A stretch of 64,000 bases of DNA from NCBI GenBank assembly GCA_964016885.1, contig OZ024740.1:264492001-264556000 (forward strand), read 5' to 3'. A program made the translations under genes and the position numbers. The notes below the pieces were generated by a model. It was not told the origin of the DNA and ran no database searches. It saw nothing but the letters and a program-made list of their open reading frames with translations. This DNA is from Eledone cirrhosa (Eukaryota). Below are positions 11,688-60,560 of this stretch, one piece after another (positions within the stretch are counted from its first letter, which is position 1; every line of letters begins with the position of its first letter).

Positions 11688-11767
<80 letters not shown>

Positions 11768-11978
11768 TGCTACTGTACGTCTGTATACATATATGTATGT
11801 ACGTATACACGCATACTTACATTTAAGTAAGTGCCGCACTAAGAGTGAGAAATGAAATTTCTTTTTCATTTTATTTCAACTTATCGTTTTCGGTATGCCT
11901 GACCGACTTAACTCACTCGATATGCAAATTAGGCTGCTCAGCCGTTAATTTTCATAAGGAAAGTATATACTTTCGAAC

Positions 11979-12065
11979 GTTCAACTATCTGGCAGAAGGG
12001 TATACGGTGCTGATGATAGCTAACAAGCTTGAAACTAGTACATCGTTCCTGTGTCAGTGTTGAAC
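11979..12065 (+). ncRNA. Type I hammerhead ribozyme, family B
   Basis: ACGGUG-CUGAUGA(12010-16)-u AGCU aaca AGCU u-GAAA(12031-34)-CUAG-UA-CAUCGU. Helix I is extended by GGG/UCC, CUGGCA/UGUCAG and GUUCAAC/GUUGAAC. Predicted cleavage after 12040. Confidence 0.9.

Positions 12066-16039: not shown

Positions 16040-16086
<47 letters not shown>

Positions 16087-17090: not shown

Positions 17091-17096
<6 letters not shown>
16087..17096. repeat. About 2.1 tandem copies of a ~487-bp unit embedded in (AT)n; candidate degenerate HHR on the minus strand
   Basis: AAGGTTTAGCAAA recurs at 16087 and 16574, with a partial copy near 17060. Minus strand UCCUU-CUGACGA-gaguuuaucuuu-GAAA-UGGaaagaCCG-C-AAGGA at 16683-16727 (U16.1 missing). 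Confidence 0.8.
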
Positions 17097-17640: not shown

Positions 17641-18103
17641 GTAAAGTTATATTTAAAATTGTTGGGTTACAACTAGTAAATATTTATAACTGATATAAAA
17701 GCACTCGACAAATATTTGGAGTATATTTACAATATTAAATAAATGGAAAACTATATTTATAAAACCATATTTATTTCATTATATATATTTCGGGGATATC
17801 ATATTAACAATATGCTATGCCTTCATCAGACAAAATACAATATAAACAGTTTTATAGATAAATATATTCGACATACCGTAATAAACATCAACTTCATTTG
17901 GAGAGGTTTTACTGCTGGCGTAAACCTCTCCAAATGAAGTTGATGTTTATTACGGTATGTCGAATATATTTATCTATAAAACTGTTTATATTGTATTTTG
18001 TCTGATGAAGGCATAGCATATTGTTAATATGATATCCCCGAAATATATATAATGAAATAAATATGGTTTTATAAATATAGTTTTCCATTTATTTAATATT
18101 GTA
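17641..18103. mobile_element. Near-perfect palindromic element in (AT)n (HHR family C); 182-bp arms 17728-17909 / 17922-18103
   Basis: Arms read as exact reverse complements by eye. HHR cores at 17772-17837 (-) and 17994-18059 (+): UAUUUUGU-CUGAUGA-...-GAAA-UAUAUA-UA-AUGAAAUA. Confidence 0.88.
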
Positions 18104-30505: not shown

Positions 30506-33500
30506 GGGAAGAAGACGCACGAGGTGGCGGAGGTCATGAAATCGCTCCCGTAAGTTTTGAATTTTTAACATATTTAAATCATTTGTGAAATAACAACTCT
30601 TAGTACAAATGCTACGTAAAGCACCCGGCTTGAGCCCCAAAAAATTCGGACCAAAATATATTGTTATAAGGCTCAAATATTCAAATATTCAACTTTGTAT
30701 TGTACACTGTATATCCAAAAAAGAAAATCGCTATAAATGGAAGAAGAACCCCCCCCCTCCTCTCCTCTGTCTACACTATATAGAACAGCCAAACTCACCA
30801 ACACCAGAAACTAGATACACCACCCACCCCATCACCTGTGTACACTAAATACAACAGCCAGATAACGGCATTTTCACCACCACCGCTCACTACGGCCATC
30901 ATTACCGCCATTATCCCATCACCGCCGCCACCACCCCTTCACTCCTTCACTGCTACCACCGCTACAGCACCATCACTACAGTAATACGGTCACATCACCG
31001 CCACCACTGCCTCGGTATCGACATCACCACCACCACTGTCTCAGTATCGCTACCGCCGCCAGTCTCCCACTTCTCACCCGGCTGGCTGCTGCCACCACAT
31101 TATAGAATCCCTACTGCTAAAAAAGAGGAAGGCATCAAAATATATAGATAGACTCAAAAGAAAAAAGAAAAAAAAAAAAAAAAAACCAAAGCACCACAGC
31201 AACAACAGCAAAAAAACGAGAAAAACAAACAGAAAAACAAAAACAAAAACAAAAACAAAAAAAACCCCAAAAACGTAAAGAAAATAAGAATGAAGAGAGA
31301 AGCAGGCGGACGGACAGAGAAGAGGGGGGAAAAACTAAAACTTAAAAAACCAAAACTAAGTCAGACATTCGAACACTACATTACAATGAAACTTATGCTT
31401 ATTCATTTTTGGGGCCCTTTCTGCCTGTGTGTTTGTTTGTTTATGTGTGTTCGTATACAGCGTGGTGATAATGCCACACAAGGGCCAAGTGGAATGGCGG
31501 ATCCACAGATGGCTATGTAACAATACATTCGCCAATCCTCGATAAGAGTGTTTAAATATCGAACATAAACAGTTCGAATAACGGTGAAATGGAGACTAGA
31601 ACGTCATGTGACAGACTCTCACCCAACAGGTGCCCCCTGGCTCAGCAGCAGGAACCTGACTGTCAACCAAATACTGCTGATGTTGGAGGAAGGAGAAGAA
31701 GGAAAGGGGCCAGAACCAACTGGACGAAAGAATTGAATAGAACTGTTATGCAATGTTACCTGAAAAGTAACCCCAAGGAGAGGGGCTACAGGAGACGGAT
31801 GCATAACATCTGGAACGAGATTGGTTTATTTAAATTAGATGAACAAAAATTGGCCGGGCAGGCTCGGGTAATAAGAACTAATGGGTGGATAAACGAGCTG
31901 GAACTGGAGGAACTGAGCAGAGAGAATGGCTTGGAGATGGCGGGTGTAGTATGCCAGACAAGCGAGCCAGTGGGAAATGAAGGCGAAGAGGTCCTGAGAA
32001 CGGAGGAACCACCCGAAGCAGACAATGATCTGAATACTGAGATAAATAATACCTGGAACAGAGATACGGCCACTGAGGAGATGAATGCTGACGGGCTAGG
32101 ACAAGATTCGGTTGACATCCTAAATTTAGTGGTAGATGAATTGAACAATGATAGTGGGAGACCTATGAACCTAAGATTTGTAGACAGGAAAAAGTTAAAA
32201 GAAACAACAGCTAAGGTAAACAAAGTCATCCCATACCTGGAGGCGAGGAGCCTTCACCAGTGCAACAATATCCTCAAAGCAACAGCAAATACGGTGAGGA
32301 AACTACTTGGTATAAAAGCGAGAGGAAACAACAGACAAGAAAGAGCAGAGCCGTGGTGGAAGAAGCGACTGAGTGGGCAAATCGGGGAAATGAGAAATGA
32401 CATAGGAAAGCTTGAGTCACTACTGAATGGGACACTAAAAAACATAGGCACTAAAAATAGACTGGAAATAAAATACAAAACTAGGAGGAAAAAGCTAAAT
32501 ATTATCATAGAGGAACTGAAGCAACGCATTGTAGCAAAGAGTGCAAAAATCAGGCGATACGAGAACAGAGTCAGTCAGTATAAACAGAACCGCATGTTCG
32601 ACAACAACCAGAAGATGCTGTTTGGACAGCTTGAGGGGAAAGAAAGAGGCAACGACTTGATCCCTGGTGCGGAGCAAACTAAAACATTCTGGAGAGGAAT
32701 ATGGGAGCAGGATGTTAGACATAATGTCCAGGCAGGGTGGATTGAGACAGTACAGAGGGAGATCGGTGAGCAGGCACAACAACAAACTGATTTGAGTATC
32801 ACAGTTGAAACTCTTAAGGGGCAGGCCAAAAAACTAACCAACTGGAAATCACCAGGCCCAGATGGTGTGCAGGGGTATTGGATTAAACATTTAACATCCC
32901 TCCACCCGAAGCTGACGGCCATGTTCAATGACTGCTTTGTGTCGGGTGAGGTGCCAGAGTGGTTGACAAAAGGTACCACAGTTCTGATAATGAAAGACCG
33001 AATCAAGGGTAATGATGTTACCAACTATAGACTTATTACATGTCTGTCCGTAATGTGGAAACTGTTGACGAGCATTGTGTCTGAGGAAATCTACCATCAC
33101 CTCCACACAAACAACTTGTTACCGGACGAACAGAAAGGATGCCGAAAGAAGTCACGTGGTACAAAGGACCAGTTACTTATTGATAAGATGGTAATGGGGA
33201 ATTGCAGGAGGAGACACACTGATCTTGCCATGGGATGGATAGACTACAGAAAGGCATTTGACATGGTCCCTCATTCTTGGATCACCAAAAGCCTGGAGAT
33301 CTTCAGGGTGGCAGATAACATCAGACAGTTGCTGGGCAGGAGTATGGGGTCCTGGGAGACAGAGTTGACATCAACTGGAGTATCCTTGGTAAGCGTGAAG
33401 ATCAAGAGAGGTATCTTCCAGGGAGATAGCATGTCCCCTATGTTGTTTGTCCTTGCCCTGATGCCCTTGACCATTATGCTGCGAAAAGTGAGAGCAGGAT

Positions 33501-35068
33501 ACAAGTTGGGAAGGGGAGAGCTTACCATCAATCACCTCCTCTTCATGGACGATCTTAAGCTCTTTGGGAAAAGTGAGAAGGAGTTGGATGTGCTTGTTGA
33601 CACTGTCCGTATTTTCAGCAGTGATATACGTATGCAGTTTGGTATTGGTAAATGTGGAGTCATTGTGATGAAGAGTGGTAGGTTGAGCAGAAGTAACGGG
33701 ATCCAGATACCAACAGGTGAGATGATAAAGGAAATTGACTCTGAGGAAGGATACAAGTATTTGGGCGTTCTGGAGGCTGATGGCATAAATAACAAAAAAA
33801 TGAAGGAATTGTTAAGAACTGAATACATTCGGAGAGTAAGGAGCGTATTGAAGTCACATCTGAACAGCAGAAATGCCATAAGCGCAGTAAATTCCCGAGC
33901 TGTGTCTATTATTAGGTACAGTGCGGGAATTCTGAGATGGAATGTTGCTGAACAAAAAGAAATGGATAGGAAGACTAGGAAGCTATTGACTATCTACAAC
34001 ATGTTCCACAAGAGGAGTGATGTCGATAGACTCTACCTAAGGAGATCTGAGGGTGGAAGAGGTCTTATCAGCATAGAGGACTGTGTTCAGATGGAGAAAA
34101 ACAACCTATACAAATACGTGACCTATAGTAAGGAGCCAATGCTCAGAACTGTACTGAAGGAGGGGACAGTAGGCCAGGGGATGTCCAAGGAGGAAATAAC
34201 ATCAAGGAGGAAGAGCAGCTTTAAGGGAAAATCCCTTCATAGTACCTTCTTTGAGAAAACTGAATTTAGAGATCCACAGACATGGAACTGGTTGAGAAGA
34301 GGAGACCTCAAAAGGGCTACAGAAGGAATGCTAATGGCTGCGCAGGAGCAGGCCCTCAAAACGAAGTGGTTGAAGCACCATATCTACAAGTAGGAGGCTA
34401 GCCCACTGTGCATGATCTGTGGAGAGGGAGAGGAGACTGTGGCTCACATTGTGTCCGAGTGTAAACACATAGCCCAGACCCACTATAAGGGCTGGAGACA
34501 CGATGTGATGGGCAGGGTGATCCACTGGCACCTGTGCAAAGTAAACAATCTACCACATTCTGAGAAATGGTATGAGCATAGGCCAGAGGCGGTGATGGAG
34601 AACAGTCAGGTGAAGGTGCTGTGGGATTTTAGGATACAGACGGACAAAAAACTGGAACACAATAGACCTGACCTGGTGGTTGTGGACAAAGATAAAAGAT
34701 CGTGCCTGATTGTGGATGTGGCCTGCCCGTTCGACACGAGAGTGCAAGAGAAGGAGAGGGAGAAAATTAACCGAAACCAGGACCTAAAGTGGGAGGTGAA
34801 AAGGATTTGGAACTGCCATGAAGTCAAAGTGATCCCGATTGTCATAGGCGCACTGGGGACTATCTCCAAAGGTTTCCAGGGATGGTTAAAGAAAATCGGC
34901 CCCTTCACGCATTTTTGGAACGCTTCAAAAGGCATGCTTGCTTGGAACAGCAAGAACCCTCCGATACGTCCTGAATATCTGAGGCTGCAGGTAGTGGCTT
35001 GATATTCAATCCAACGGACTTTCCAGTTAACCAACATCAATGACTGAGATTCAAGGAATAACAATAAC

Positions 35069-35123
<55 letters not shown>
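30505..35123 (+). mobile_element. R4/Dong-clade RLE non-LTR retrotransposon, family A, near full length, in (TAA)n
   Basis: Single ORF with RT, CCHC and RLE domains; short 3' UTR followed by a (TAA)n tail. The 5' boundary is inferred from the upstream (TAA)n and is uncertain. Confidence 0.88.
31589..34982 (+). pseudogene. R4-A polyprotein (N-terminal domain, RT, CCHC, restriction-like endonuclease); premature TAG at 34391 and frameshift near 34911
   Basis: WKSPGPDG, DYRKAFDMVPH, GIFQGDS, HLLFMDDLKL, C..C...ETVAHIVSEC, RHD, HNRPD..IVDVACP..EK. Other copies have GAG at the stop position and end LRYVLNI. Confidence 0.93.
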
Positions 35124-35125
<2 letters not shown>

Positions 35126-38115
35126 CTAAACATTACTGACTTAATCATCTCTATTATGCATCGGCTAAAGTCACCACTCACTTATGTGGAGTGAAGATGA
35201 AAAAACAAAGGAATTTCCACAAGAAATCTACTTGGCAAGATAACATCAATCGCCAAATAAACCTTCTCCGATCTGACATAGAAATTTTAACAAACTATAA
35301 AGTAGGTGAACATGTTAAACAAACTAAACTTAGAAAATTGAAAAAAAAGTACAGTATAAGATCAACATGTGACATAGACATGCTGATAGAAACAATCAAG
35401 CAAAAAGTGTCGGCCAAAGCTGCTCGTATAAGGCGCTTTGAAAAACGATCTAGATTCTATAAGGACAATAATATGTTCAAAAACAACCAAAGAAACTTCT
35501 ACAGTAAAAATTGGTAAGTCAACAATAACTGCTAAATCAATACCACCCAAGGAGGAAGTGCAAGAATTCTGGGAAAAGATCTGGGCCGAAGAAAAAGTTC
35601 ATAACATACATGCCCCATGGATAGACAGACAAATGAAAGAAACAGCTCACCTTGAAGAACAAACATGGGAAAATATAACAGTTGAACAGCTGCGCTTGGC
35701 TCTAAGAAAAACCAGCAAATGGAAATCCCCAGGAAAAGACAAAATACAAAACTTTTGGATAAATGCCTTCACAGAGTCTCATGAGCTGTTAGCCCAACTT
35801 TACAATGAAATAGTTAAGGAGCCAGAAAAGATACCATCATGGCTAGTTAACGGCATTACATTCCTGCTACCGAAGAATGATGAGACAAACAATCCCAAAA
35901 ATTACAGACCGATAACCTGCTTGACCACAATGTATAACATTTTAACATCAGTCCTAACTGAATACACATATGACCACCTGATAACAAATGACCTATTTCC
36001 CATTGAGCAGAAAGGGTGTAAACGAGGCTCATATGGCTGTAAGGATCAGCTTCTGGTTAACAAAATGTTACTGGAAGATTGTCATAACAGACACAAAAAT
36101 ATATCGATTGCTTGGATAGATTATAAAAAAGCATTTGATAGTTTACCACACAGTTGGATTGAAAAATGTTTAGAGATTTTCAAAATATCCCCCGTTGTCA
36201 GGAGGTTTTTGTCATTCAGTATGAGGACATGGAGAACGACACTCCTTTTCAATAGTGAAACAAAATCACTGGAAGCTGGAGAAGTTAACATTAATTGTGG
36301 AATTTTTCAGGGTGACTCTTTATCACCGCTTTTATTCTGCATCGCGCTTATACCATTAAGTGAAATGCTCAATGAAACAAAACATGGATATAGAGTCTAT
36401 GACAAAACCATTAATCACCTGTTCTACATGGATGACCTGAAACTATTTGCAAAAAATGATGAACAATTGCAAGGGCTATTATCCACTGTGAAGCAGTTCA
36501 GTGATGACATTAAAATGGAGTTTGGACTGGATAAATGCGCCAAAGCAACGTTCACCAGAGGAAAGCTGCTGACGAGTTCAGACATTAATCTTGATCGGGG
36601 AAACGTGATAAGAGAGCTTGATCAAGAACAAACTTACAAATATCTAGGTGTTTGTGAAGGAGACGGAATCAAGCACTCGACAATGAGGGAAAGGATAAGG
36701 AAGGAATGTTACCGCAGAGTCAGAGCAATCTTAAGAACGGAATTGAATGCAAGGAATAGGATCGATGCCATAAACACGCTTGCCATACCAGTAGTAACCT
36801 ACAGTTACAATGTCATCAACTGGTCAAGCACAGAGATCCGTAGGCTCGATACAAAAATCCGAAAATTCTTAACCATGCACAGAATGCATCACCCTAAGGC
36901 AGACATAGATAGAATATATCTCCCTAGGAAAGAAGGAGGGCGTTGGTTAATCCAGTTAGACATTGCGTTGAAAACTGCAACAATTGGATTATCCACATAT
37001 CTAAGGGATTCACATGATTGGATGATCAAACTCGTTTTGAAACACGAAAGCACCAAAAGATCATATTCCATTACAAAAGATGCACAAAGATACAGTAATG
37101 GACTACAAATTTCAGAAGTCCCATTTACTGCTGAAATGGAAAACACAGAAAAAGCAAAGCAGGTAAAAGTAACTGCAAAGAAAGAACTGCTACAGAAACT
37201 GGCTAAGAAATGGCAAGAAAAGCCTCTGTATGGAAAATACCCAGAGCGAGCTAACAATCATGATGTTGACAAAACTTTAACCCATCAGTGGTTGGCATCC
37301 TCTGGACTGAAATCGGAGACTGAAGGACTGATTATATCCGCACAAGATCAGTGTCTGCCAACAAAAAATTACCAAGCCAACATAATAAAAAATGGGTGCA
37401 GCCCATTATGCCGTGTATGCAAAAAACAACCAGAGACCATTGACCATATAATCTCAATGTGCAGTCCTATAGCTCCAACCGAATACCTAAACAGGCATGA
37501 CAGAGCTGCACAATACATACATTGGATAATGTGTAAGCATTTTGACCTGCTCCATCAAAAGAATTGGTGGGAGCATCAACCACCTCCCATACTTGAAAAA
37601 GATCACATCTCAATCTTGTGGAACTTTAGCATCCAAACAGACCGAAAAATAGATGCAAATAGACCTGATATAATATTGAAGGACTTTCAAAGGAGGGTAT
37701 GCCTGCTAATTGATATGTCTGTTCCAATAGACAAGAATGTATCTATAAAAACATTTAAAAAATTGAGCAAGTATAAGGACCTGGAGATAGAAATTGGAAA
37801 AATGTGGAAATTGAGAACTAAAACAATACCAGTGGTTGTGGGCGCTCTGGGAATGATACCTAAGGGGTCTAACGACTACTTATCGCAAATCCCAGGAAAC
37901 CCGCGTATAGGAGAAATACAAAAGATAGTACTAATGGGAACTGCCCATATACTAAGGAAGATCCTGTCAATATAAGTACATCACAAGTCTAAACGCTAAG
38001 GATGCATGTGTGAATATGTGTGTTCTTTCTTGAACATGGCGGACCTTGTTGTCTCTTGAGGTCACTGGTTGTGACTTGGTGATAACTCGTATAAACATAA
38101 AGCAAGATAAATGCA

Positions 38116-38181
<66 letters not shown>
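35124..38181 (+). mobile_element. R4/Dong-clade element, family B (AT-rich), 5'-truncated, inserted in the tail of family A; ORFs 35191-35517 and 35438-37975 (one frameshift)
   Basis: WKSPGKDKI, DYKKAFDSLPH, GIFQGDSLSP, HLFYMDDLKL, CRVC..ETIDHIISMC, RHD, ANRPD; 3' UTR to 38116, then (TAA)n. Confidence 0.92.
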
Positions 38182-38182
38182 T

Positions 38183-39667
38183 GTTGGATGTGCTTGTTGA
38201 CACTGTCCGTATTTTCAGCAGTGATATATGTATGCAGTTTGGTATTGGTAAATGTGGAGTCATTGTGATGAGGAGGGGTAGGTTGAGCAGAAGTAACGGG
38301 ATCCAGATACCAACAGGTGAGATGATAAAGGAAATTGACTCTGAGGAAGGATACAAGTATTTGGGCGTTCTGGAGGCTGATGGCATAAAGAACAAAAAAA
38401 TGAAGGAATTGTTAAGAACTGAATACATTCGGAGAGTAAGGAGCGTATTGAAGTCACATCTGAACAGCAGAAATGCCATAAGCGCAGTAAATTCCCGAGC
38501 TGTGTCTATTATTAGGTACAGTGCGGGAATCCTGAGATGGAATGTTGCTGAACAAAAAGAAATGGATAGGAAGACTAGGAAGCTATTGACTATCTACAAC
38601 ATGTTCCACAAGAGGAGTGATGTCGATAGACTCTACCTAAGGAGATCTGAGGGTGGAAGAGGTCTTATCAGCATAGAGGACTGTGTTCAGATGGAGAAAA
38701 ACAACCTATACAAATACGTGACCTATAGTAAGGAGCCAATGCTCAGAACTGTACTGAAGGAGGGGACAGTAGGCTAGGGGATACCCAAGGAGGAAATAAC
38801 ATCAAGGAGGAAGAGCAGCCTTAAGGGAAAATCCCTTCATAGTACCTTCTTTGAGAAAACTGAATTTAGAGATCCACAGACATGGAACTGGTTGAGAAGA
38901 GGAGACCTCAAAAAGGCTACAGAAGGAATGCTAATGGCTGCGCAGGGGCAGGCCCTCAAAACGAAGTGGTTGAAGCACCATATCTACAAGGAGGAGGCTA
39001 GCCCACTGTGCAGGATCTGTGGAGAGAGAGAGGAGACTGTGGCTCACATTGTGTCCGAGTGTAAACACCTAGCCCAGACCCACTATAAGGGCTGGAGACA
39101 CGATGTGATGGGCAGGGTGATCCACTGGCACCTGTGCAAAGTAAACAATCTACCACACTCTGAGAAATGGTATGAGCATAGGCCAGAGGCGGTGATGGAG
39201 AACAGTCAGGTGAAGGTGCTGTGGGATTTTAGGATACAGACGGACAAAAAACTGGAACACAATAGACCTGACCTGGTGGTTGTGGACAAAGAAAAAAGAT
39301 CGTGCCTGATTGTGGATGTGGCCTGCCCGTTCGACACGAGAGTGCAAGAGAAGGAGAGGGAGAAAATTAACCGAAACCAGGACCTAAAGTGGGAGGTGAA
39401 AAGGATTTGGAACTGCCATGAAGTCAAAGTGATCCCGATTGTCATAGGCGCACTGGGGACTATCTCCAAAGGTTTCCAGGGATGGTTAAAGAAAATCGGC
39501 CCCTTCACGCTTTTTGGAACGCTTCAAAAGGCATGCTTGCTTGGAACGGCAAGAACCCTCCGATACGTCCTGAATATCTGAGGCTGCAGGTAGTGGCTTG
39601 ATATTCAATCCAACGGACTTTCCAGTTAACCAACATCAATGACTGAGATTCAAGGAATAACAATAAC

Positions 39668-39745
<78 letters not shown>
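38183..39745 (+). mobile_element. R4 family A, 5'-truncated copy (stop at 38775)
   Basis: Near-identical to 33583-35060; preceded and followed by (TAA)n. Confidence 0.92.
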
Positions 39746-39748
<3 letters not shown>

Positions 39749-40879
39749 TGGATTATCCACATATCTAAGGGAATCACATGATTGGATGATCAAACTCGTT
39801 TTGAAACACGAAAGCACCAAAAGATCATATTCCATTACAAAAGATGCACAAAGATACAGTAATGGACTACAAATTTCAGAAGTCCCATTTACTGCTGAAA
39901 TGGAAAACACAGAAAACGCAAAGCAGGTAAAAGTAACTGCAAAGAAAGAACTGCTACAGAAACTGGCTAAGAAATGGCAAGAAAAGCCTCTGTATGGAAA
40001 ATACCCAGAGCGAGCTAACAATCCTGATGTTGACAAAACTTTAACCCATCAGTGGTTGGCATCCTCTGGACTGAAATCGGAGACTGAAGGACTGATTATA
40101 TCCGCACAAGATCAGTGTCTGCCAACAAAAAATTACCAAGCCAACATAATAAAAAATGGGTGCAGCCCATTATGCCGTGTATGCAAAAAACAACCAGAGA
40201 CCATTGACCATATAATTTCAATGTGCAGTCCTATAGCTCCAACCGAATACCTAAACAGGCATGACAGAGCTGCACAATACATACATTGGATAATGTGCAA
40301 GCATTTTGACCTGCCCCATCAAAAGAATTGGTGGGAGCATCAACCACCTCCCATACTTGAAAAAGATCACATCTCAATCTTGTGGAACTTTAGCATCCAA
40401 ACAGACCGAAAAATAGATGCAAATAGACCTGATATAATATTGAAGGACTTTCAAAGGAGGGTATGCCTGCTAATTGATATGTCTGTTCCAATAGACAAGA
40501 ATGTATCTATAAAAACATTTAAAAAATTGAGCAAGTATAAGGACCTGGAGATAGAAATTGGAAAAATGTGGAAATTGAGAACTAAAACAATACCAGTGGT
40601 TGTAGGCGCTCTGGGAATGATACCTAAGGGGTCTAACGACTACTTATCGCAAATCCCAGGAAACCCGCGTATAGGAGAAATACAAAAGATAGTACTAATG
40701 GGAACTGCCCATATACTAAGGAAGATCCTGTCAATATAAGTACATCACAAGTCTAAACACTAAGGATGCATGTGTGAATATGTGTGTTCTTTCTTGAACA
40801 TGGCGGACCTTGTTGTCTCTTGAGGTCACTGGTTGTGACTTGGTGATAACTCGTATAAACATAAAGCAAGATAAATGCA

Positions 40880-41125: not shown

Positions 41126-41210
<85 letters not shown>

Positions 41211-41219
<9 letters not shown>

Positions 41220-44176
41220 AATATAGACATAGAATATTCGAAAATATTCTGTATGTTTATAATAAACATTTTGAAGACCTAATCGCTATAGAATAGAATA
41301 CGTCACGTATTACAATTAGATTCTCGATAAAAGCAAGGGAAGTAATCTACGCGTTTCATTCTTGTTAGAAATCATCAGGACTACATATCCAGTGCTTTTA
41401 TCGAGAATGACACAGCTAGAGACTTATAGAATACTTAGCTGTGTACAGGAACTGGTTTGAAAGAGCGGTTGCCGGTCCGGCAGAAATTAGAAATTGGAAT
41501 AAATGCTCTGAAATAGCGATATATATGTGAATATAGACATAGAATATTCGAAAATATTCTGTATGTTTATAATAAACATTTTGAAGACCTAATCGCTATA
41601 GAATAGAATACGTCACGTATTACAATTAGATTCTCGATAAAAGCAAGGGAAGTAATCTACGCGTTTCATTCTTGTTAGAAATCATCAGGACTACATATCC
41701 AGTGCTTTTATCGAGAATGACACAGCTAGAGACTTATAGAATACTTAGCTGTGTACAGGAACTGGTTTGAAAGAGCGGTTGCCGGTCCGGCAGAAATTAG
41801 AAATTGGAATAAATGCTCTGAAATAGCGATATATATGTGAATATAGACATAGAATATTCGAAAATATTCTGTATGTTTATAATAAACATTTTGAAGACCT
41901 AATCGCTATAGAATAGAATACGTCACGTATTACAATTAGATTCTCGATAAAAGCAAGGGAAGTAATCTACGCGTTTCATTCTTGTTAGAAATCATCAGGA
42001 CTACATATCCAGTGCTTTTATCGAGAATGACACAGCTAGAGACTTATAGAATACTTAGCTGTGTACAGGAACTGGTTTGAAAGAGCGGTTGCCGGTCCGG
42101 CAGAAATTAGAAATTGGAATAAATGCTCTGAAATAGCGATATATATGTGAATATAGACATAGAATATTCGAAAATATTCTGTATGTTTATAATAAACATT
42201 TTGAAGACCTAATCGCTATAGAATAGAATACGTCACGTATTACAATTAGATTCTCGATAAAAGCAAGGGAAGTAATCTACGCGTTTCATTCTTGTTAGAA
42301 ATCATCAGGACTACATATCCAGTGCTTTTATCGAGAATGACACAGCTAGAGACTTATAGAATACTTAGCTGTGTACAGGAACTGGTTTGAAAGAGCGGTT
42401 GCCGGTCCGGCAGAAATTAGAAATTGGAATAAATGCTCTGAAATAGCGATATATATGTGAATATAGACATAGAATATTCGAAAATATTCTGTATGTTTAT
42501 AATAAACATTTTGAAGACCTAATCGCTATAGAATAGAATACGTCACGTATTACAATTAGATTCTCGATAAAAGCAAGGGAAGTAATCTACGCGTTTCATT
42601 CTTGTTAGAAATCATCAGGACTACATATCCAGTGCTTTTATCGAGAATGACACAGCTAGAGACTTATAGAATACTTAGCTGTGTACAGGAACTGGTTTGA
42701 AAGAGCGGTTGCCGGTCCGGCAGAAATTAGAAATTGGAATAAATGCTCTGAAATAGCGATATATATGTGAATATAGACATAGAATATTCGAAAATATTCT
42801 GTATGTTTATAATAAACATTTTGAAGACCTAATCGCTATAGAATAGAATACGTCACGTATTACAATTAGATTCTCGATAAAAGCAAGGGAAGTAATCTAC
42901 GCGTTTCATTCTTGTTAGAAATCATCAGGACTACATATCCAGTGCTTTTATCGAGAATGACACAGCTAGAGACTTATAGAATACTTAGCTGTGTACAGGA
43001 ACTGGTTTGAAAGAGCGGTTGCCGGTCCGGCAGAAATTAGAAATTGGAATAAATGCTCTGAAATAGCGATATATATGTGAATATAGACATAGAATATTCG
43101 AAAATATTCTGTATGTTTATAATAAACATTTTGAAGACCTAATCGCTATAGAATAGAATACGTCACGTATTACAATTAGATTCTCGATAAAAGCAAGGGA
43201 AGTAATCTACGCGTTTCATTCTTGTTAGAAATCATCAGGACTACATATCCAGTGCTTTTATCGAGAATGACACAGCTAGAGACTTATAGAATACTTAGCT
43301 GTGTACAGGAACTGGTTTGAAAGAGCGGTTGCCGGTCCGGCAGAAATTAGAAATTGGAATAAATGCTCTGAAATAGCGATATATATGTGAATATAGACAT
43401 AGAATATTCGAAAATATTCTGTATGTTTATAATAAACATTTTGAAGACCTAATCGCTATAGAATAGAATACGTCACGTATTACAATTAGATTCTCGATAA
43501 AAGCAAGGGAAGTAATCTACGCGTTTCATTCTTGTTAGAAATCATCAGGACTACATATCCAGTGCTTTTATCGAGAATGACACAGCTAGAGACTTATAGA
43601 ATACTTAGCTGTGTACAGGAACTGGTTTGAAAGAGCGGTTGCCGGTCCGGCAGAAATTAGAAATTGGAATAAATGCTCTGAAATAGCGATATATATGTGA
43701 ATATAGACATAGAATATTCGAAAATATTCTGTATGTTTATAATAAACATTTTGAAGACCTAATCGCTATAGAATAGAATACGTCACGTATTACAATTAGA
43801 TTCTCGATAAAAGCAAGGGAAGTAATCTACGCGTTTCATTCTTGTTAGAAATCATCAGGACTACATATCCAGTGCTTTTATCGAGAATGACACAGCTAGA
43901 GACTTATAGAATACTTAGCTGTGTACAGGAACTGGTTTGAAAGAGCGGTTGCCGGTCCGGCAGAAATTAGAAATTGGAATAAATGCTCTGAAATAGCGAT
44001 ATATATGTGAATATAGACATAGAATATTCGAAAATATTCTGTATGTTTATAATAAACATTTTGAAGACCTAATCGCTATAGAATAGAATACGTCACGTAT
44101 TACAATTAGATTCTCGATAAAAGCAAGGGAAGTAATCTACGCGTTTCATTCTTGTTAGAAATCATCAGGACTACAT
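41211..44176 (-). repeat. Tandem array of a 310-bp HHR-containing monomer (family A), about 9.5 copies, ribozyme sense on the minus strand
   Basis: Unit starts at 41211, 41521, 41831, 42141, 42451, 42761, 43071, 43381, 43691 and 44001; no differences seen between copies; left end merges into (AT)n. Confidence 0.97.
41320..41408 (-). ncRNA. Type I hammerhead ribozyme, family A (first of 10 minus-strand cores, every 310 bp)
   Basis: Reverse complement of 44232-44320. Confidence 0.9.
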
Positions 44177-46001
44177 CTTTCAAACCAGTTCCTGTACACA
44201 GCTAAGTATTCTATAAGTCTCTAGCTGTGTCATTCTCGATAAAAGCACTGGATATGTAGTCCTGATGATTTCTAACAAGAATGAAACGCGTAGATTACTT
44301 CCCTTGCTTTTATCGAGAATCTAATTGTAATACGTGACGTATTCTATTCTATAGCGATTAGGTCTTCAAAATGTTTATTATAAACATACAGAATATTTTC
44401 GAATATTCTATGTCTATATTCACATATATATCGCTATTTCAGAGCATTTATTCCAATTTCTAATTTCTGCCGGACCGGCAACCGCTCTTTCAAACCAGTT
44501 CCTGTACACAGCTAAGTATTCTATAAGTCTCTAGCTGTGTCATTCTCGATAAAAGCACTGGATATGTAGTCCTGATGATTTCTAACAAGAATGAAACGCG
44601 TAGATTACTTCCCTTGCTTTTATCGAGAATCTAATTGTAATACGTGACGTATTCTATTCTATAGCGATTAGGTCTTCAAAATGTTTATTATAAACATACA
44701 GAATATTTTCGAATATTCTATGTCTATATTCACATATATATCGCTATTTCAGAGCATTTATTCCAATTTCTAATTTCTGCCGGACCGGCAACCGCTCTTT
44801 CAAACCAGTTCCTGTACACAGCTAAGTATTCTATAAGTCTCTAGCTGTGTCATTCTCGATAAAAGCACTGGATATGTAGTCCTGATGATTTCTAACAAGA
44901 ATGAAACGCGTAGATTACTTCCCTTGCTTTTATCGAGAATCTAATTGTAATACGTGACGTATTCTATTCTATAGCGATTAGGTCTTCAAAATGTTTATTA
45001 TAAACATACAGAATATTTTCGAATATTCTATGTCTATATTCACATATATATCGCTATTTCAGAGCATTTATTCCAATTTCTAATTTCTGCCGGACCGGCA
45101 ACCGCTCTTTCAAACCAGTTCCTGTACACAGCTAAGTATTCTATAAGTCTCTAGCTGTGTCATTCTCGATAAAAGCACTGGATATGTAGTCCTGATGATT
45201 TCTAACAAGAATGAAACGCGTAGATTACTTCCCTTGCTTTTATCGAGAATCTAATTGTAATACGTGACGTATTCTATTCTATAGCGATTAGGTCTTCAAA
45301 ATGTTTATTATAAACATACAGAATATTTTCGAATATTCTATGTCTATATTCACATATATATCGCTATTTCAGAGCATTTATTCCAATTTCTAATTTCTGC
45401 CGGACCGGCAACCGCTCTTTCAAACCAGTTCCTGTACACAGCTAAGTATTCTATAAGTCTCTAGCTGTGTCATTCTCGATAAAAGCACTGGATATGTAGT
45501 CCTGATGATTTCTAACAAGAATGAAACGCGTAGATTACTTCCCTTGCTTTTATCGAGTATCTAATTGTAATACGTGACGTATTCTATTCTATAGCGATTA
45601 GGTCTTCAAAATGTTTATTATAAACATACAGAATATTTTCGAATATTCTATGTCTATATTCACATATATATCGCTATTTCAGAGCATTTATTCCAATTTC
45701 TAATTTCTGCCGGACCGGCAACCGCTCTTTCAAACCAGTTCCTGTACACAGCTAAGTATTCTATAAGTCTCTAGCTGTGTCATTCTCGATAAAAGCACTG
45801 GATATGTAGTCCTGATGATTTCTAACAAGAATGAAACGCGTAGATTACTTCCCTTGCTTTTATCGAGAATCTAATTGTAATACGTGACGTATTCTATTCT
45901 ATAGCGATTAGGTCTTCAAAATGTTTATTATAAACATACAGAATATTTTCGAATATTCTATGTCTATATTCACATATATATCGCTATTTCAGAGCATTTA
46001 T

Positions 46002-46007
<6 letters not shown>
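44177..46007 (+). repeat. Inverted tandem array of the same 310-bp monomer, about 5.9 copies, ribozyme sense on the plus strand
   Basis: Unit starts at 44177, 44487, 44797, 45107, 45417 and 45727; one substitution seen (45558 A>T); ends TTCCAAT|(AT)n. Confidence 0.97.
44232..44320 (+). ncRNA. Type I hammerhead ribozyme, family A (first of 6 plus-strand copies)
   Basis: GUAGUC(44256-61)-CUGAUGA(44262-68)-u UUCU aaca AGAA u-GAAA(44283-86)-CGCG-UA-GAUUAC(44293-98). Helix I is extended by GGA/UCC and a 16-bp perfect stem AUUCUCGAUAAAAGCA/UGCUUUUAUCGAGAAU. Predicted cleavage GUA| after 44292. Confidence 0.92.
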
Positions 46008-46046
<39 letters not shown>

Positions 46047-46048
<2 letters not shown>

Positions 46049-46275
46049 GTGGTAGAACACTGGAAGGTAATATCCGTGGTGGTAGAGCACTCAGTCCATG
46101 GGACGAGTTAGGTGGAAGTTGTTACACAACAGTTAGTTCACCATACTGAGAACAATTGTTTCACCTTCGCGGATCCTCAACCTGTTCTGTATAACCATGT
46201 CCATTAAGAGCTGAGGATCCGCTAAGGTGAAACAATTGTTCTCAGTATGGTGAGCTAACTCTTGTGTAACCACTT
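46047..46275. mobile_element. Head-to-head inverted short element in (AT)n (HHR family F); HHR 46201-46250 (+), truncated mirror 46141-46181 (-)
   Basis: CCAU uaa GAG-CUGAGGA-u CC gcuaa GG u-GAAA-CAAUUG-UU-CUC agu AUGG; arms about 46116-46179 / 46212-46275. Confidence 0.8.
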
Positions 46276-46289
46276 ATATATATACACCA

Positions 46290-47325
46290 CCTGAAGAACC
46301 TCTTTACTGGCCTAACCGGAGATTTATACCGAGATGACGCCCTCTTCACCCTGCACAAGGTTAACCCCAGAACCACCGATGGGTTTCGGAGAAACTTAAG
46401 CTCGTTCTTCCGTAATCTAGGATTTAGTATAATTATAGAAACTAATATGACTAGGCCCAACATTTTAGATGTCGCTCTCGACCTAGATACTTCCTTCTAA
46501 TACACGTACCACAAACCTAATGAGTCCCTTTGATATATTAATGTTAATTCTAACCACCCCAAAAACATCACTGATAACTTAGTAAAAAGCGTCTTTATTA
46601 GAATCTCTGGCCTCTCGGCCAATGAAGATATCTTTACCGCCTCTGCCTCCCACCACAATGACGCCCTCACCCGCAGCGGATTTAAAGAAAAGATAACCTA
46701 CCTATTAACCACCGCAAGGCTGCATAGGAGAATTAGGCATAGGCAGATTAGCTGGTACAACCCTCCCTTCAATAGAGAGGTCTCTACACCTATAGCTAGG
46801 ATTTTCTTCACTTTGCTGAACATACACTTCTCCATACAACATAGGTACTACACCATCTTTAATAAGAACACAATAAGACTCTCCTACTCCACTACACCTA
46901 ACCTAGCTAGGAATATAGCCAATCTCAATTCTAAAAAAATAAATAAGCCAACCACCTCCGAACCCAATCCCCGGACTGAGGCCTTGTGTACTTGCTTAAA
47001 TAAGGAAGCCTGCCCACTTGAAAACAAATGCCTGACAAATGATATTTTATACAAATGCGATGTCATCTCAGGCACCGATGATTGCAACAACAAAAAGACT
47101 TACATCGGCATGACATCCAATAACTTTAAGACTCGGTGGTATGCCCATACCTACTCCCTCAGAAGACCGGACAAATCAAGTCAGAGAACACTCGCCTCCT
47201 ATGTTTGGGACCTCAAAAGAACTCCACCCTTTCACGCTTAAATGGAAAATACTCCAGAAAGCGCACTCATACAACGGAGGACACAATCTGCGACCTTTGT
47301 ATCTCAGAGAGCTACGAAACTTTAT
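46290..47325 (+). mobile_element. Decayed PLE (RT YRDD through GIY-YIG)
   Basis: GDLYRDDALF, NILDVALDL, YHKPNES, SNHPKNI, ISWYNPPFN, LSYSTTPNL, CTC..CPLENKCL..ILYKC, YIGMTSNNFKTRW. Confidence 0.9.
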
Positions 47326-47782: not shown

Positions 47783-48157
47783 TATATTGGTAAAAGGAAA
47801 AGAAAATGCTGACAAATTGTTCCCAGTGAAAAATAGTTTAATTAGGAATAAGTAAAAATTAGTAATAGTATTGGTTAGTATTCAGTTTTGGTTCTAAGTT
47901 TCACCGGTTGCGCATTTCTAATGCTTTTCAAAAATAATTTTGAGATAGAGCGCTCGTGATGTTTGCCCTAATCTGATTAGAGCAAACATCACGGACGCTC
48001 TATCTCAAAATTATTTTTGAAAAGCATTAGAAATGCGCAACCGGTGAAACTTAGAACCAAAACTGAATACTAACCAATACTATTACTAATTTTTACTTAT
48101 TCCTAATTAAAGTATTTTTCACTGGGAACGATTTGTCAGCATTTTCTTTTCCTTTTA

Positions 48158-48165
<8 letters not shown>
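47783..48165. repeat. Palindrome with ~190-bp arms and 1-nt centre (47974), between (AT)n tracts
   Basis: ...GATGTTTGCCCTAATC T GATTAGAGCAAACATC...; few mismatches; no canonical HHR core found. Confidence 0.9.
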
Positions 48166-51164: not shown

Positions 51165-51879
51165 GGAAAAATGAAACGAAATTTCATTTCTCACCCTTAG
51201 TACGGCTGTTACTTAAGTATAAGTAAGTATACGTACATACATATATGTATACAGACGTACAGTAGTTTGTATATATATATATATATACATACATGCACAC
51301 ACATATATATGTACCTATGGATTCACCGAACATTTATTATAATGCTCAGTGTGTTTGTAAACAAACTTCCCGAATTAAGCCGTACAGTGTCTAGCAACCA
51401 CCGTTGCTCATTTGTTCAACACTGACGAAGGAACGCTGTACTTGTTTCAAGCTTATTAACTATCGTCAGCAACGTATACCTTCCTGCCAGATGATTGAAC
51501 GTCTGAAAGTATATACTTTCCCTATGCATATTAACGGCTGAGCAGCCTAATTTGCATATCGAGTGAGTTTATCGGCCGGGTACCGAAAACGATAAACGGA
51601 AAAAATGAAACGAAATTTCATTTCTCAGTTTTAGTACGGTTGTTACTTAAATATAAGTATGTATACGTACATACATATATGTATACAGACGTACAGTAGT
51701 ATGTATATATATATACATACATGCACACATATATATATGTAAGTATGGATTCACGGAACATTTATTATAATGCTCGGTGTGTTTGTAAAGAAACATCCCG
51801 AATTAAGCCGTATAGTGTCTCGCAACCATCGTTGCTCATTTGTTCAACACTGACAAAGGAACGCTGTACTAGTTTCAAG
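51161..51879 (-). mobile_element. Diverged HHR family B element, about 1.7 tandem units (period about 433); HHR 51433-51475
   Basis: Homologous to 11165-12350; ACGUUG-CUGACGA-uaguuaauaagcuu-GAAA-CAAG-UA-CAGCGU. The second unit is truncated inside helix II and has CUAG in helix III. Confidence 0.85.
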
Positions 51880-56664: not shown

Positions 56665-56746
56665 AAATAAAATAAACAAGTCAAATGTTTAAAATTTGGC
56701 TTCGTAGTACTGCTATATATATTTCGGTTACAGATATATATATTCA

Positions 56747-56813
<67 letters not shown>

Positions 56814-59129
56814 TTGAGTATTACAGTTGAAACTCTTAAGGGGCAGGCCAAAAAGCTAACCAACTGGAAATCGCCAGGCCCAGATGGTGTGCAAGGGTAT
56901 TGGATTAAACATTTAGCATCCCTCCACCCGAAGCTGACGGCCATGTTCAATGACTGCTTGGTGTCGGGTGAGGTGCCAGAGTGGTTGACAAAAGGTACCA
57001 CAGTTCTGATAATGAAAGACCGAATCAAGGGTAATGATGTTACCAACTATAGACCTATCACATGTCTGTCCGTAATGTGGAAACTGTGGACGAGCATTGT
57101 GTCTGAGGAAATCTACCATCACCTCCACACAAACAACTTGTTACCGGACGAACAGAAAGGATGCCGAAAGAAGTCACGTGGTACAAAGGACCAGTTACTT
57201 ATTGATAAGATGGTAATGGGGAATTGCAGGAGGAGACACACTGATCTTGCCATGGGATGGATAGACTACAGAAAGGCATTTGACATGGTGCCCCATTCCT
57301 GGATCACCAAAAGCCTGGAGATCTTCAAGGTGGCAGATAACATCAGACAGTTGCTAGGCAGGAGTATGGGGTCCTGGGAGACAGAGTTGACATCAACTGG
57401 AGTATCCTTGGGAAGCGTGAAGATCAAGAGAGGTATCTTCCAGGGAGATAGCCTGTCCCCTCTGTTGTTTGTCCTTGCCCTGATGCCCTTGACCATTATG
57501 CTGCGAAAAGTGAGAGCAGGATACAAGTTGGGAAGGGGAGAGCTTACCATCAATCACCTCCTATTCATGGACGATCTTAAGCTCTTCGGGAAAAGTGAGA
57601 AGGAGTTGGATGTGCTTGTTGACACTGTCCGTATTTTCAGCAGTGATATATGTATGCAGTTTGGTATTGGTAAATGTGGAGTCATTGTGATGAAGAGGGG
57701 TAGGTTGAGCAGAAGTAACGGGATCCAGATACCAACAGGTGAGATGATAAAGGAAATTGACTCTGAGGAAGGATACAAGTATTTGGGCGTTCTGGAGGCT
57801 GATGGCATAAAGAACAAAAAAATGAAGGAATTGTTAAGAACTGAATACATTCGGAGAGTAAGGAGCGTATTGAAATCACATCTGAACAGCAGAAATGCCA
57901 TAAGCGCAGTAAATTCCCGAGCTGTGTCTATTATTAGGTACAGTGCGGGAATTCTGAGATGGAATGTTGCTGAACAAAAAGAAATGGATAGGAAGACTAG
58001 GAAGCTATTGACTATCTACAACATGTTCCACAAGAGGAGTGATGTCGATAGACTCTACCTAAGGAGATCTGAGGGTGGAAGAAGTCTTATCAGCATAGAG
58101 GACTGTGTTCAGATGGAGAAAAACAACCTATACAAATACGTGACCTATAGTAAGGAGCCAATGCTCAGAACTGTACTGAAGGAGGGGACAGTAGGCCAGG
58201 GGATGTCCAAGGAGGAAATAACATCAAGGAGGAAGAGCAACCTTAAGGGAAAATCCCTTTATAGTACCTTCTTTGAGAAAACTGAATTTAGAGATCCACA
58301 GACATGGAACTGGTTGAGAAGAGGAGACCTCAAAAAGGCTACAGAAGGAATGCTAATGGCTGCGCAGGAGCAGGCCCTCAAAACGAAGTGGTTGAAGCAC
58401 CATATCTACAAGGAGGAGGCTAGCCCACTGTGCAGGATCTGTGGAGACAGAGAGGAGACTGTGGCTCACATTGTGTCCGAGTGTAAACACCTAGCCCAGA
58501 CCCACTATAAGGGCTGGAGACACGATGTGATGGGCAGGGTGATCCACTGGCACCTGTGCAAAGTAAACAATTTACCACATTCTGAGAAGTGGTATGAGCC
58601 AGAGCATAAGCCAGAGGCGGTGATAGAAAACAATCAGGTGAAGGTGCTGTGGGATTTTAGGATACAGACGGACAAAAAACTGGAACACAATAGACCTGAC
58701 CTGGTGGTTGTGGACAAAGAAAAAAGATCGTGTCTGATTGTGGATGTGGCCTGCCCGTTCGACAAGAGAGTGCAAGAGAAGGAGAGGGAGAAAATTAACC
58801 GATACCAGGACCTAAAGTGGGAGGTGAAAAGGATCTGGAACTGCCATGAAGTCAAAGTGATCCCGATTGTCATAGGCGCACTGGGGACTATCTCCAAAAG
58901 TTTCCAGAGATGGTTAAAGAAAATCGGCCCCTTCACGCTTTTTGGAACGCTTCAAAAGGCATGCTTGCTTGGAACAGCAAGAACCCTCCGATACGTCCTG
59001 AATATCTGCGGCTGCAGGTAGTGGCTTGATATTCATCTCAACAAACTTTCTAGTTAACTAACATCAATGACTGAGACTCAAAGAGTAATAACAATAATAA
59101 TAATAATAATTATAATAATAATAATAATA
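56814..59129 (+). mobile_element. R4 family A, 5'-truncated, with open RT-CCHC-RLE frame to 59021
   Basis: Begins right after (TAA)n; all RT/RLE motifs intact; 6-nt insertion (EPEHK); the normal stop TGA is changed to TGC, extending the C-terminus. Confidence 0.93.
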
Positions 59130-60560
59130 ATCCAGATACCAACAGGTGAGATGATAAAGGAAATTGACTCTGAGGAAGGATACAAGTATTTGGGCGTTCT
59201 GGAGGCTGATGACATCAAGAACAAAAAAATGAAGGAATTGATAAGAACTGAATACCTTCGGAGAGTAAGGAGCGTATTAATGTCACATCTGAACAGTAGG
59301 AATGCCATAAGTGCAGTAAATGCCCGGGCTGTGTCTATTATTAGGTACAGTGCAGGAATTCTGAGATGGAATGTTGCTGAACAAAAAGAAATGGATAGGA
59401 AGATTAGGAAGCTATTGACTATCTACAATATGTTCCACAAGAGGAGTGATGTCGATAGACTCTACTTAAGGAGGTCTGAGGGTGGAAGAGGTCTTATCAG
59501 CATAGAGGACTCTGTTCAGATGGAGAAAAACAACCTACACAAATACGTGACTGATAGTAAGGAGCCAATGCTCAGAACTTTACTGAAGGAGGGGACAATA
59601 GGCCAGGGGATGTCCAAGGAGGAAATAACATCAAGGAGAAAGAGGAGCCTTCAGGAAAAATCCCTTCATAGTACCTTCTTTGAGAAAACTGAATTTAGAG
59701 ATCCACAGACATGGAACTGGTTGAAAAGAGACCTTAAAAAGGCTACAGAAGGAATGTTAATGGTTGCGCAGGAGCAGGCCCTCAAAATGAAGTGGTTGAA
59801 ACACCACATTTACAAGGAGGAGGCTAGCCCACTGTGCAGGATCTGTGGAGAGAGAGAGGAGACTGTGGCTCACGTTGTATCCGAGTGTAAACACCTAGCC
59901 CAGACTCACTATAAGGGCTGGAGACATGATGTGATGTGCGGGGTAATCCAATGGCACCTATGCAAAGTAAACAATTTACCACATTCTGAGAAGTGGTATG
60001 AGCATAAGCCAGAGGCGGTGATAGAAAACGATCAGGTGAAGGTACTGTGGAATTTTAGGATACAGACGGACAAGAAACTGGAACACAATAGACCTGACCT
60101 GGTGGTTTTGGACAAAGAAAAAAGATCGTACCTGATTGTGGATGTGGCCTGCTCATTCGACACGAGAGTGCAAGAGAAGGAGAGGGAGAAACTTAACTGA
60201 TACCATGACTTAAAGTGGGAGGCAAAAAGGATTTGGAACTGCCATGAAGTCAAAGTGATCCCGATTGTCAGAGGCGCACTAGGGACTATCTCAAAAAGTT
60301 TCCAGGGATGGTTAAAGAAAATTGGCCCCTTCACGCTTTTTGGAACGCTTCAAAAAGCATGCTTGCTGGGAACAGCAAGAACCCTCCGATACGTCCTGAA
60401 TATCTGAGGCTGCAGATAGTGGGTTGATATTCTTTTTAACAAACTTTCCAGTTAACTAACATAAATGACTGAGACTTGGTGATAACTCGTATGAACATAA
60501 AGCAAGATAAATGCAACTGTGATAATAATAATAACAACAATAATAATAATAATAATAATA
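59130..60560 (+). mobile_element. R4 family A, 5'-truncated, older/diverged, with a family-B 3' terminus
   Basis: Matches family A to 60476, then matches the family B 3' UTR end (GACTTGGTGATAACTCGTAT.AACATAAAGCAAGATAAATGCAA) and (TAA)n. Confidence 0.9.

What the first reader, a model, noticed from the sequence alone, without database searches (positions are those of the whole stretch)
44001..44320. Array polarity flips at 44176/44177: two divergent arrays whose 3' ends both anchor in (AT)n
Seen: about 9.5 copies with ribozyme sense pointing left are joined to about 5.9 copies pointing right, sharing a single T at the junction and leaving a 77-nt spacer (44177-44253) between ~1.75-kb inverted arms. 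The left array breaks immediately 5' of HHR helix I. The outer (3') ends lie about 135 nt (the internal ATATAT) and about 165 nt (CCAAT) downstream of the cleavage site, both at AT microhomology with the flanking microsatellite. Inference: both ends of a break in (AT)n primed reverse transcription at internal positions of a circular or multimeric template, and the two cDNAs were joined head to head. Neither end coincides with the cleavage site, which argues against a linear monomer template.
Basis: partly seen in the sequence, partly recalled or inferred. Interest (0 to 1): 0.85.

Follow-up and report, generated by a model that had tools for sequence, protein, structure and literature searches.

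The report
Two-armed ribozyme arrays with Penelope ends
The flip in this array of a 310-base repeat carrying a predicted self-cutting RNA is the normal form of a young family with more than a thousand insertions: two back-to-back arms whose outer ends nearly always sit at two fixed points about 35 bases apart, which likely shows a Penelope-type jumping gene copying one small RNA from both cut strands of an AT-repeat.

Summary
Observation confirmed. The flip is neither a one-off nor an artefact: it is the default insertion form of a very young non-LTR retrozyme family (310-nt unit, type I hammerhead; 4,177 exact ribozyme copies in the genome). Of 100 loci examined, 88 are head-to-head, 11 single-armed, 1 cut by a gap. 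Outer ends are fixed: at least 1,099 at nt 130-139 after the cleavage site, 943 at nt 165, none at the cleavage site. All 80 complete two-armed loci pair one short with one long end (63 of 63 not pre-selected for both). Both arms carry the same haplotype; inner junctions fall at random phase with microhomology. Inverted truncated arm, ~35-nt one-sided tail and (TA)n target are published hallmarks of Penelope-like elements (PLEs); I did not find them described for retrozymes. Best model (0.7): a PLE protein nicks both strands and primes two cDNAs at two set sites of one, mostly circular, RNA. Main rival (0.2): one priming plus fold-back copying. The autonomous partner, RNA expression, this exact junction in reads and an empty allele remain unshown. 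The scan reported a similar architecture once before, on other DNA (a ribozyme-free unit).

The parts
41130..41216 (.). left (TA)n target microsatellite; its last 8 nt overlap the unit's internal AT run
41209..44176 (-). left arm, 9.6 tandem 310-nt units; outer end at the short site (nt 132-139), inner start at nt 272
44176..44176 (.). head-to-head junction, 1-nt overlap (T)
44177..44253 (.). 77-nt unpaired centre between the nearest complementary register of the arms (arithmetical result of the two inner phases)
44176..46007 (+). right arm, 5.9 units; inner start nt 194, outer end at the long site (nt 165); one substitution at 45558
44250..44302 (+). type I hammerhead motif of the first right-arm unit: helix I 44256-44261/44293-44298 with upper stem and UAU bulge, core 44262-44268, helix II with AACA loop, 2-bp palindromic helix III, predicted cut after 44292
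   Evidence: sequence inspection; below Rfam gathering threshold; activity untested
44348..44490 (+). conserved structured block (nt 56-198 of the unit) that holds both end sites; shared with older sister families whose hammerhead modules differ; predicted recognition site of the reverse transcriptase
45973..46007 (+). 35-nt 'tail' (nt 131-165) present at the long end and absent from the short end
46006..46045 (.). right (TA)n target microsatellite

Best explanation
This is one insertion of a young non-LTR retrozyme family whose two back-to-back arms were likely made in a single event by the protein of a Penelope-like element (PLE) copying one retrozyme RNA from both nicked strands of a (TA)n tract. 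Shown: head-to-head arms are the rule; outer ends sit at two fixed sites about 35 nt apart, one per arm; both arms share one haplotype; inner ends fall anywhere and are joined with microhomology or short, often locally copied inserts. Inferred: a GIY-YIG endonuclease/RT (predicted to be a dimer, by analogy with the anole PLE) nicks both strands; the two 3' ends start reverse transcription at the short site (nt ~130) and the long site (nt ~165) of a conserved RNA structure; each RT runs through the hammerhead site for a random number of turns, mostly on a 310-nt circle and sometimes on a multimer; host end-joining links the two cDNA ends. The hammerhead would serve to cut and circularise the RNA, not to define insertion ends. 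The partner PLE is not identified.
For: 4,177 exact hammerhead copies, listed runs read '- then +'. Ends: 943 at nt 165, 432 at nt 132-139, 667 at nt 130, 0 at the cleavage site, 0 at a control AT site; 22 of 22 outer ends of the 12 loci picked by ribozyme alone lie in the two windows. 80 of 80 complete two-armed loci are long+short, 63 of them not picked with both ends known; 64 of 64 divergent end pairs in the position lists are long+short against about half expected (overlapping loci, not an independent sample). Both sites also occur as the only anchored end of single-armed loci (8 short, 3 long). 112 of 114 fixed substitutions agree between arms, chance match 0.11; 15 variants are fixed across all units of just one locus each, as a one-unit template predicts. 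Inner phases uniform (p=0.71); 38 of 59 insert-free junctions have 2 or more nt overlap against 18% for random joins. The block holding both sites is conserved in sister families with other ribozyme modules, 4 of 33 predicted pairs changing on both sides. A coding PLE of the same genome shows the same two-end rule with a 60-nt tail. PMC8557442 (passages): inverted 5'-truncated copy, 30-40-bp tail at one end, (TA)n targets. PMC11167929 (main text): PLE protein nicks and extends both strands, starts at two internal sites that bound the tail, does not need ribozyme cleavage, predicted dimer.
Against: No autonomous PLE sharing the block was found. Arm lengths are coupled (rho 0.29, p=0.008) and the short/long ratio fits a uniform fraction better than two independent arms, which fold-back copying also predicts; that test left out the 13 loci with no or a tiny second arm, which inflates the ratio. 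Two loci (L029, L080) share non-fixed variants in register from the outer end (5 of 67 such variants): this needs a multimer template or copying of one arm from the other, not two passes round a monomer circle. One 47-unit arm shows a repeated block of variants, so secondary duplication also occurs. Most loci were picked by an end at one of the two sites and all 100 lie on contig 1.
Confidence: 0.7

Rival explanations
1. One priming plus fold-back: the PLE protein primes once, the finished cDNA snaps back on itself by microhomology and is copied outwards, and the second outer end is set by endonuclease cleavage or annealing at the other site.
For: Explains the shared haplotype, the in-register variants at L029 and L080 even with a monomer circle, the microhomology at the inner junction and the near-uniform short/long arm ratio (KS p=0.51). 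PMC8557442 suggests the tail results from endonuclease resolution of the intermediate.
Against: A fixed order is excluded: the short-end arm is longer in 34 of 80 loci (23 by more than a unit) and the long-end arm in the rest (36 by more than a unit), so either end must be able to go first. Observed rho 0.29 and spread of the longer arm (CV 0.71) fall outside the simple fold-back simulation (0.40-0.73; 0.80-1.21). The anole PLE extends both strands from two RNA sites in vitro (PMC11167929).
Confidence: 0.2
2. Repair of a chance break in (AT)n by some reverse transcriptase using AT microhomology on the RNA.
For: The short site overlaps the only AT run of 6 or more nt in the unit; other RT-bearing elements are abundant in the window.
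Against: The long site has 2 nt of homology yet is used 943 times, a 4-nt site never; two short ends or two long ends never pair; older sisters without a perfect AT run end at the homologous place.
Confidence: 0.04
3. Arrays grew by local tandem amplification after insertion of a short two-armed PLE-type fragment, or an ordinary array was inverted afterwards.
For: bioRxiv 10.64898/2026.07.22.740005 (discussion) proposes local amplification from a PLE terminus; the 47-unit arm L067/L193 has a duplicated block of variants.
Against: Units differ by only 0.05% per base within loci, private variants are fixed in both inverted arms, lengths roughly fit an exponential (p=0.053), and two-armed loci with less than one unit per arm keep the same ends (L002, L074, L099). 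A later inversion would also give tail-to-tail joints and would not create a second fixed outer end.
Confidence: 0.04
4. Palindromic-read or assembly artefact.
For: This exact junction was not shown bridged in any independent run.
Against: Flanks differ on the two sides, arms are unequal and not mirror images, ends obey the long+short rule at 80 of 80 loci, some junctions hold extra letters, and the public contigs of run X1 hold 14 different left-arm-to-right-arm joints at depth 3-27.
Confidence: 0.02

Closest known systems
Animal non-LTR retrozymes (Cervera and de la Pena, PMC7229834; review PMC7761336; bioRxiv 10.64898/2026.07.22.740005)
   Same: Tandem 150-450-bp low-GC non-coding units with a type I hammerhead with weak palindromic helix III; dispersed arrays; PLEs proposed as helpers and more-than-unit cDNA from a circle predicted.
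   Different: Those texts, as far as read, describe no inverted arms, fixed ends, tail or microsatellite target ('inverted' 0 times in PMC7229834); the review says no conserved motif points to the helper. Here the insertion signature and a conserved end-defining block are visible.
[quoted passage not shown]
   Same: Partial tandems, inverted 5'-truncated copy at the 5' end, 30-40-bp tail at one end, (TA)n bias, two internal RT starts downstream of the hammerhead site.
   Different: No ORF; the unit is 310 nt, so both arms are multi-copy arrays; inversion is the default (88 of 100 loci) and long+short pairing is strict, which the passages read state only as 'often'.
Non-autonomous PLEs such as MRC1 of Chlamydomonas (PMC8557442, 10.1101/2022.06.16.496473; passages)
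   Same: Non-coding, multicopy tandem insertions mobilised by a PLE.
   Different: Those generally resemble an autonomous family at the 3' end and are described as head-to-tail; here no partner was found and a hammerhead is present.
L1 twin priming (PMC2837659, passages)
   Same: Both target strands prime cDNA on one RNA, giving a head-to-head join with microhomology.
   Different: L1 uses a poly(A) end plus a variable internal site and leaves non-overlapping pieces with a deletion; here both starts are internal, fixed and 35 nt apart, and both arms copy the same sequence.

Membership tests
non-LTR retrozyme | tandem unit of 150-450 bp, GC below 50%, no coding region | tested here: met
   310-nt period, GC 0.33-0.35, no ORF of 120 aa or more in the arrays
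non-LTR retrozyme | type I hammerhead motif in every unit | tested here: met
   core and helices in all 16 copies of the window; none of the fixed variants of 28 haplotypes hits the conserved core and those in helices keep or restore pairs; Rfam gathering score not reached
non-LTR retrozyme | self-cleavage and accumulation of monomeric circular RNA | not testable with these tools
   no RNA run available; only indirect support from one-unit bottlenecks
non-LTR retrozyme | target-site duplication when present | tested here: inconclusive
   both flanks are (TA)n, so a duplication cannot be read
Penelope-like element (insertion signature) | inverted 5'-truncated copy joined at the 5' end | tested here: met
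   88 of 100 loci
Penelope-like element (insertion signature) | 30-40-bp tail at one end only | tested here: met
   nt 130 versus nt 165, 80 of 80 complete loci
Penelope-like element (insertion signature) | (TA)n target bias (Neptune, Naiad) | tested here: met
   22 of 22 outer ends of the 12 ribozyme-picked loci abut AT-alternating sequence
Penelope-like element (autonomous) | ORF with RT and GIY-YIG endonuclease | tested here: not met
   no ORF in or attached to the unit
non-autonomous derivative of a specific PLE | sequence similarity to the pseudo-LTR of an autonomous family | tested here: inconclusive
   two pattern searches, one protein search and scans of the held loci found only non-coding sisters; the genome could not be searched exhaustively
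L1-type twin priming | poly(A)-primed arm plus variable internal priming, non-overlapping pieces | tested here: not met
   no poly(A); both starts fixed; arms overlap in sequence

The most novel reading that the evidence does not exclude
A single PLE dimer grips one small circular RNA at a conserved structure and fires two rolling-circle reverse transcriptions, one from each nicked DNA strand and each from its own fixed register, so that whole retrozyme arrays are written in one step. The strict short+long pairing would then be the general explanation of the inverted-repeat-plus-tail structure of all Penelope-like insertions, and the 140-nt block a portable signal that lets any RNA circle be written into (TA)n tracts.
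Probability: 0.45. Interest if true: 0.78.

Novelty: new variant of a known kind. Interest (0 to 1): 0.6.

Why it matters
Two open questions meet here. How animal retrozymes are mobilised has rested on co-occurrence with PLEs and pseudo-LTR similarity; this family carries the full PLE insertion signature at more than a thousand near-identical loci. How PLEs make their inverted arms and one-sided tails is called undefined in PMC8557442; a 310-nt non-coding substrate with two mapped start sites, strict pairing and haplotype-marked arms makes twin priming versus fold-back, and circle versus multimer, directly testable in the existing in vitro PLE assay. It also argues that such arrays are mostly born long, not grown by unequal crossing over.

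Tried and rejected
DNA similarity search of the own genome with the unit returned nothing because common words are skipped; patterns were used instead. Rfam gave no match at gathering thresholds; the isolated 58-nt hammerhead folds no better than shuffles (z -0.5), as expected for a 2-bp helix III, while the whole unit does (z -4.4). Sequencing runs: no RNA holder listed; the one raw-read run laid gave 0 reads, no test. Partner search: patterns on the conserved block returned only non-coding sisters (35 and 620 hits; 20 and 30 loci read); the two-sequence profile was poorly built (its second sequence was a terminal unit ending in AT repeat) and its weak hits are not used; 16 coding PLE fragments, the abundant intact family (60-nt tail) and a second, GC-rich family show no such block in the stretches read; the 272-nt insert at the L036 junction matches nothing else held; the PLE ORF beside L114 is a separate insertion. 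Pfam found nothing in the 1,229-aa protein; its PLE label rests on Atlas look-alikes and recalled motifs. Rejected as meaningful: the 77-nt spacer and the break beside helix I. The first junction table counted haplotype variants as inserts and was redone with each locus's own unit.

Full report
Observation. The window holds a 310-nt tandem unit in two arms: 41209-44176 (9.6 units, sense on the minus strand) and 44176-46007 (5.9 units, plus strand), between (TA)n tracts at 41130-41216 and 46006-46045. The arms share one T; the nearest complementary register leaves 77 nt unpaired. Numbering from the predicted hammerhead cut, inner starts are nt 272 and 194 and outer ends nt 132-139 and 165; one base differs among all units. 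Each unit has a type I hammerhead motif with a 6-bp helix I plus upper stem, the conserved core, a short helix II and a 2-bp palindromic helix III (the motif reading rests on recalled consensus and on passages of PMC4209133). Rfam does not score it. The whole unit folds far better than shuffles (z -4.4).

The flip is the family rule. The 3.0-Gb genome has 4,177 exact copies of a 43-nt ribozyme stretch, and the first 100 listed fall in runs that read minus then plus. I examined 100 loci, all on contig 1: 12 picked by the ribozyme list, the others by an end at one of the two sites, 17 of them (the window included) with both ends known. 88 are head-to-head: 80 complete on one fetched stretch, 4 completed over two stretches, 2 with extra short inverted pieces inside (L051, with one small internal tail-to-tail joint, and L061), 2 with a second arm of 11-19 nt. 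11 are single-armed with the inner end joined to AT-rich flank, and 1 ends at an assembly gap. The statistics below use the 80 complete loci and leave the other 20 out.

Outer ends are fixed and paired. Genome-wide exact counts: 943 ends at nt 165, 432 at nt 132-139, 667 at nt 130, 0 at the cleavage site, 0 at a control site with 4 nt of AT homology. These are lower bounds and imply more than a thousand loci. Minor long ends lie at 159-172 and minor short ends at 127-128. In the 12 ribozyme-picked loci all 22 outer ends lie in these two windows. All 80 complete loci pair one long with one short end, 63 of 63 among those not picked with both ends known. In the position lists up to 287 Mb, 64 of 64 divergent neighbours are long+short where about half would be expected if ends were independent (these overlap the fetched loci). 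The short site overlaps the unit's only AT run of 6 or more nt, but most short ends stop at nt 130 and the long site has only 2 nt of homology, so annealing may help but does not choose the sites.

Inner junctions are random and look end-joined. With each locus's own unit as reference, 160 inner ends are uniform over the unit (p=0.71), 7 within 8 nt of the cleavage site against 8.3 expected; 59 of 80 junctions have no insert and 38 of those overlap by 2 or more nt (18% for random joins, p=4e-15); 21 have inserts, and the six of 7-33 nt each share 6-16 nt with the neighbouring sequence. Arms average 1.4 kb, 143 of 160 exceed one unit, and lengths roughly fit an exponential (p=0.053).

One template per locus. 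71 loci fall into 28 haplotypes, yet 112 of 114 fixed substitutions seen in both arms agree (chance 0.11); 15 variants are fixed in every unit of a single locus. That needs a one-unit bottleneck and fits rolling-circle copying of a monomer. Against a monomer-only picture: L080 has the same order of two haplotypes from the outer end in both arms and L029 shares one variant in the same unit (5 of 67 non-fixed variants in register), and a 47-unit arm has a repeated block of variants. Arm lengths are coupled (rho 0.29); the ratio of shorter to longer rejects independent arms and fits a uniform fraction, but rho and spread miss a simple fold-back simulation, either arm can be the longer, and the 13 loci with no or tiny second arm were left out. 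So two primings on one RNA and one priming with fold-back both remain. Within-locus divergence is 0.05% per base, so the family is very young.

A conserved end-defining block. Older sister families of about 325-355 nt have different hammerhead modules but keep nt 56-198 and end at the homologous two places, also head-to-head. An alignment of 11 such blocks has 80 invariant columns and a consensus fold of 33 pairs, 4 with changes on both sides; the sequences are related, so this is supporting, not proof. The short site lies before the 3' strand of a closing stem, the long site in the loop of the next stem.

Not an artefact. Public contigs of run X1 (kind not on record) hold 14 different joints from a left-arm position to a right-arm position at depth 3-27 and loose AT ends near both sites. 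The window's own junction was not shown bridged, and the raw-read run gave no test. No empty allele could be examined.

Comparison. PMC8557442 (passages) lists for PLEs an inverted 5'-truncated copy, a 30-40-bp tail often at one end, and (TA)n bias, and calls the mechanism undefined. PMC11167929 (parts 1-2 of 4) shows a PLE protein nicking and extending both strands, starting at two internal RNA sites that bound the tail, independent of ribozyme cleavage, and predicted to be a dimer. An intact 1,229-aa PLE-like family of this genome ends at two sites 60 nt apart at the start of its ORF, with one held locus showing short and long ends on opposite strands. For retrozymes, PMC7229834 (passages), PMC7761336 (passages) and bioRxiv 10.64898/2026.07.22.740005 (parts 1-3 of 5) propose PLE helpers and circle-templated cDNA but, in what I read, describe no inversion, tail or fixed ends. 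Searches found no paper doing so; subscription journals are largely missing and I read no supplements (the preprint's are closed), which could hold such structures. L1 twin priming differs as listed (PMC2837659, passages). The scan's earlier finding e1-7881736 reports PLE-type ends on a ribozyme-free tandem unit in another genome (seen after my reading was formed, not checked); nothing earlier on this genome or sequence.

Verdict. Real, and the standard insertion form of a retrozyme family bearing the PLE signature. Each ingredient is known from PLEs or predicted for retrozymes; what is new is their union, the strict long+short pairing and the one-template evidence at scale. New variant of a known kind, interest 0.6. 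Unshown: partner element, RNA expression, ribozyme activity, the biochemistry.

Noticed in passing
L054, L085, L111-L160: Older sister retrozyme families (~325-355 nt) share the end-defining block; one group has a hammerhead core reading TTGATAA, apparently a U3-A8 swap for the usual C3-G8 pair (label recalled), others the canonical core.
   Followed up: partly
window 11491-12034 and 51445-51469; L053, L097, L112: A separate ~480-nt tandem family with a very similar hammerhead (AACA loop, 2-bp palindromic helix III), also in opposed arms.
   Followed up: partly
window 13446-14791 (-); L161-L192: Fragment of an abundant, young PLE-like family with intact 1,229-aa ORFs and two ends 60 nt apart at the ORF start; CX4CX2C linker suggests Neptune/Nematis type (clade label inferred from PMC8557442).
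   Followed up: partly
window 46047-47320, 47783-48165, 8127-8350, 17788-18043: Further small opposed-arm elements with minimal hammerhead-like motifs in (TA)n, and a truncated RT/GIY-YIG fragment at 46282-47241 right beside the array.
   Followed up: no
runs X2 and X4: Runs filed under other organisms each hold one 340-nt closed-loop contig identical to the unit at depth about 10; trace contamination or diet is likelier than transfer; 20 holders in 16 studies were listed, 3 of them laid.
   Followed up: no
L036:2599-2870: 272-nt foreign piece between the two arms, no other match among held loci; a possible captured template.
   Followed up: partly
L067 and L193: 47-unit arm with a block of variants that recurs about 29 units later: secondary duplication or a large multimer template.
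   Followed up: partly
window 31556-40739 and 56676-60200: Stack of RT-bearing non-LTR elements nested in (AAT)n tracts, R4/Dong-like by recalled features.
   Followed up: no
window 16077-17096: 2.1 copies of a 487-nt unit with a hammerhead-like motif between AT tracts.
   Followed up: no
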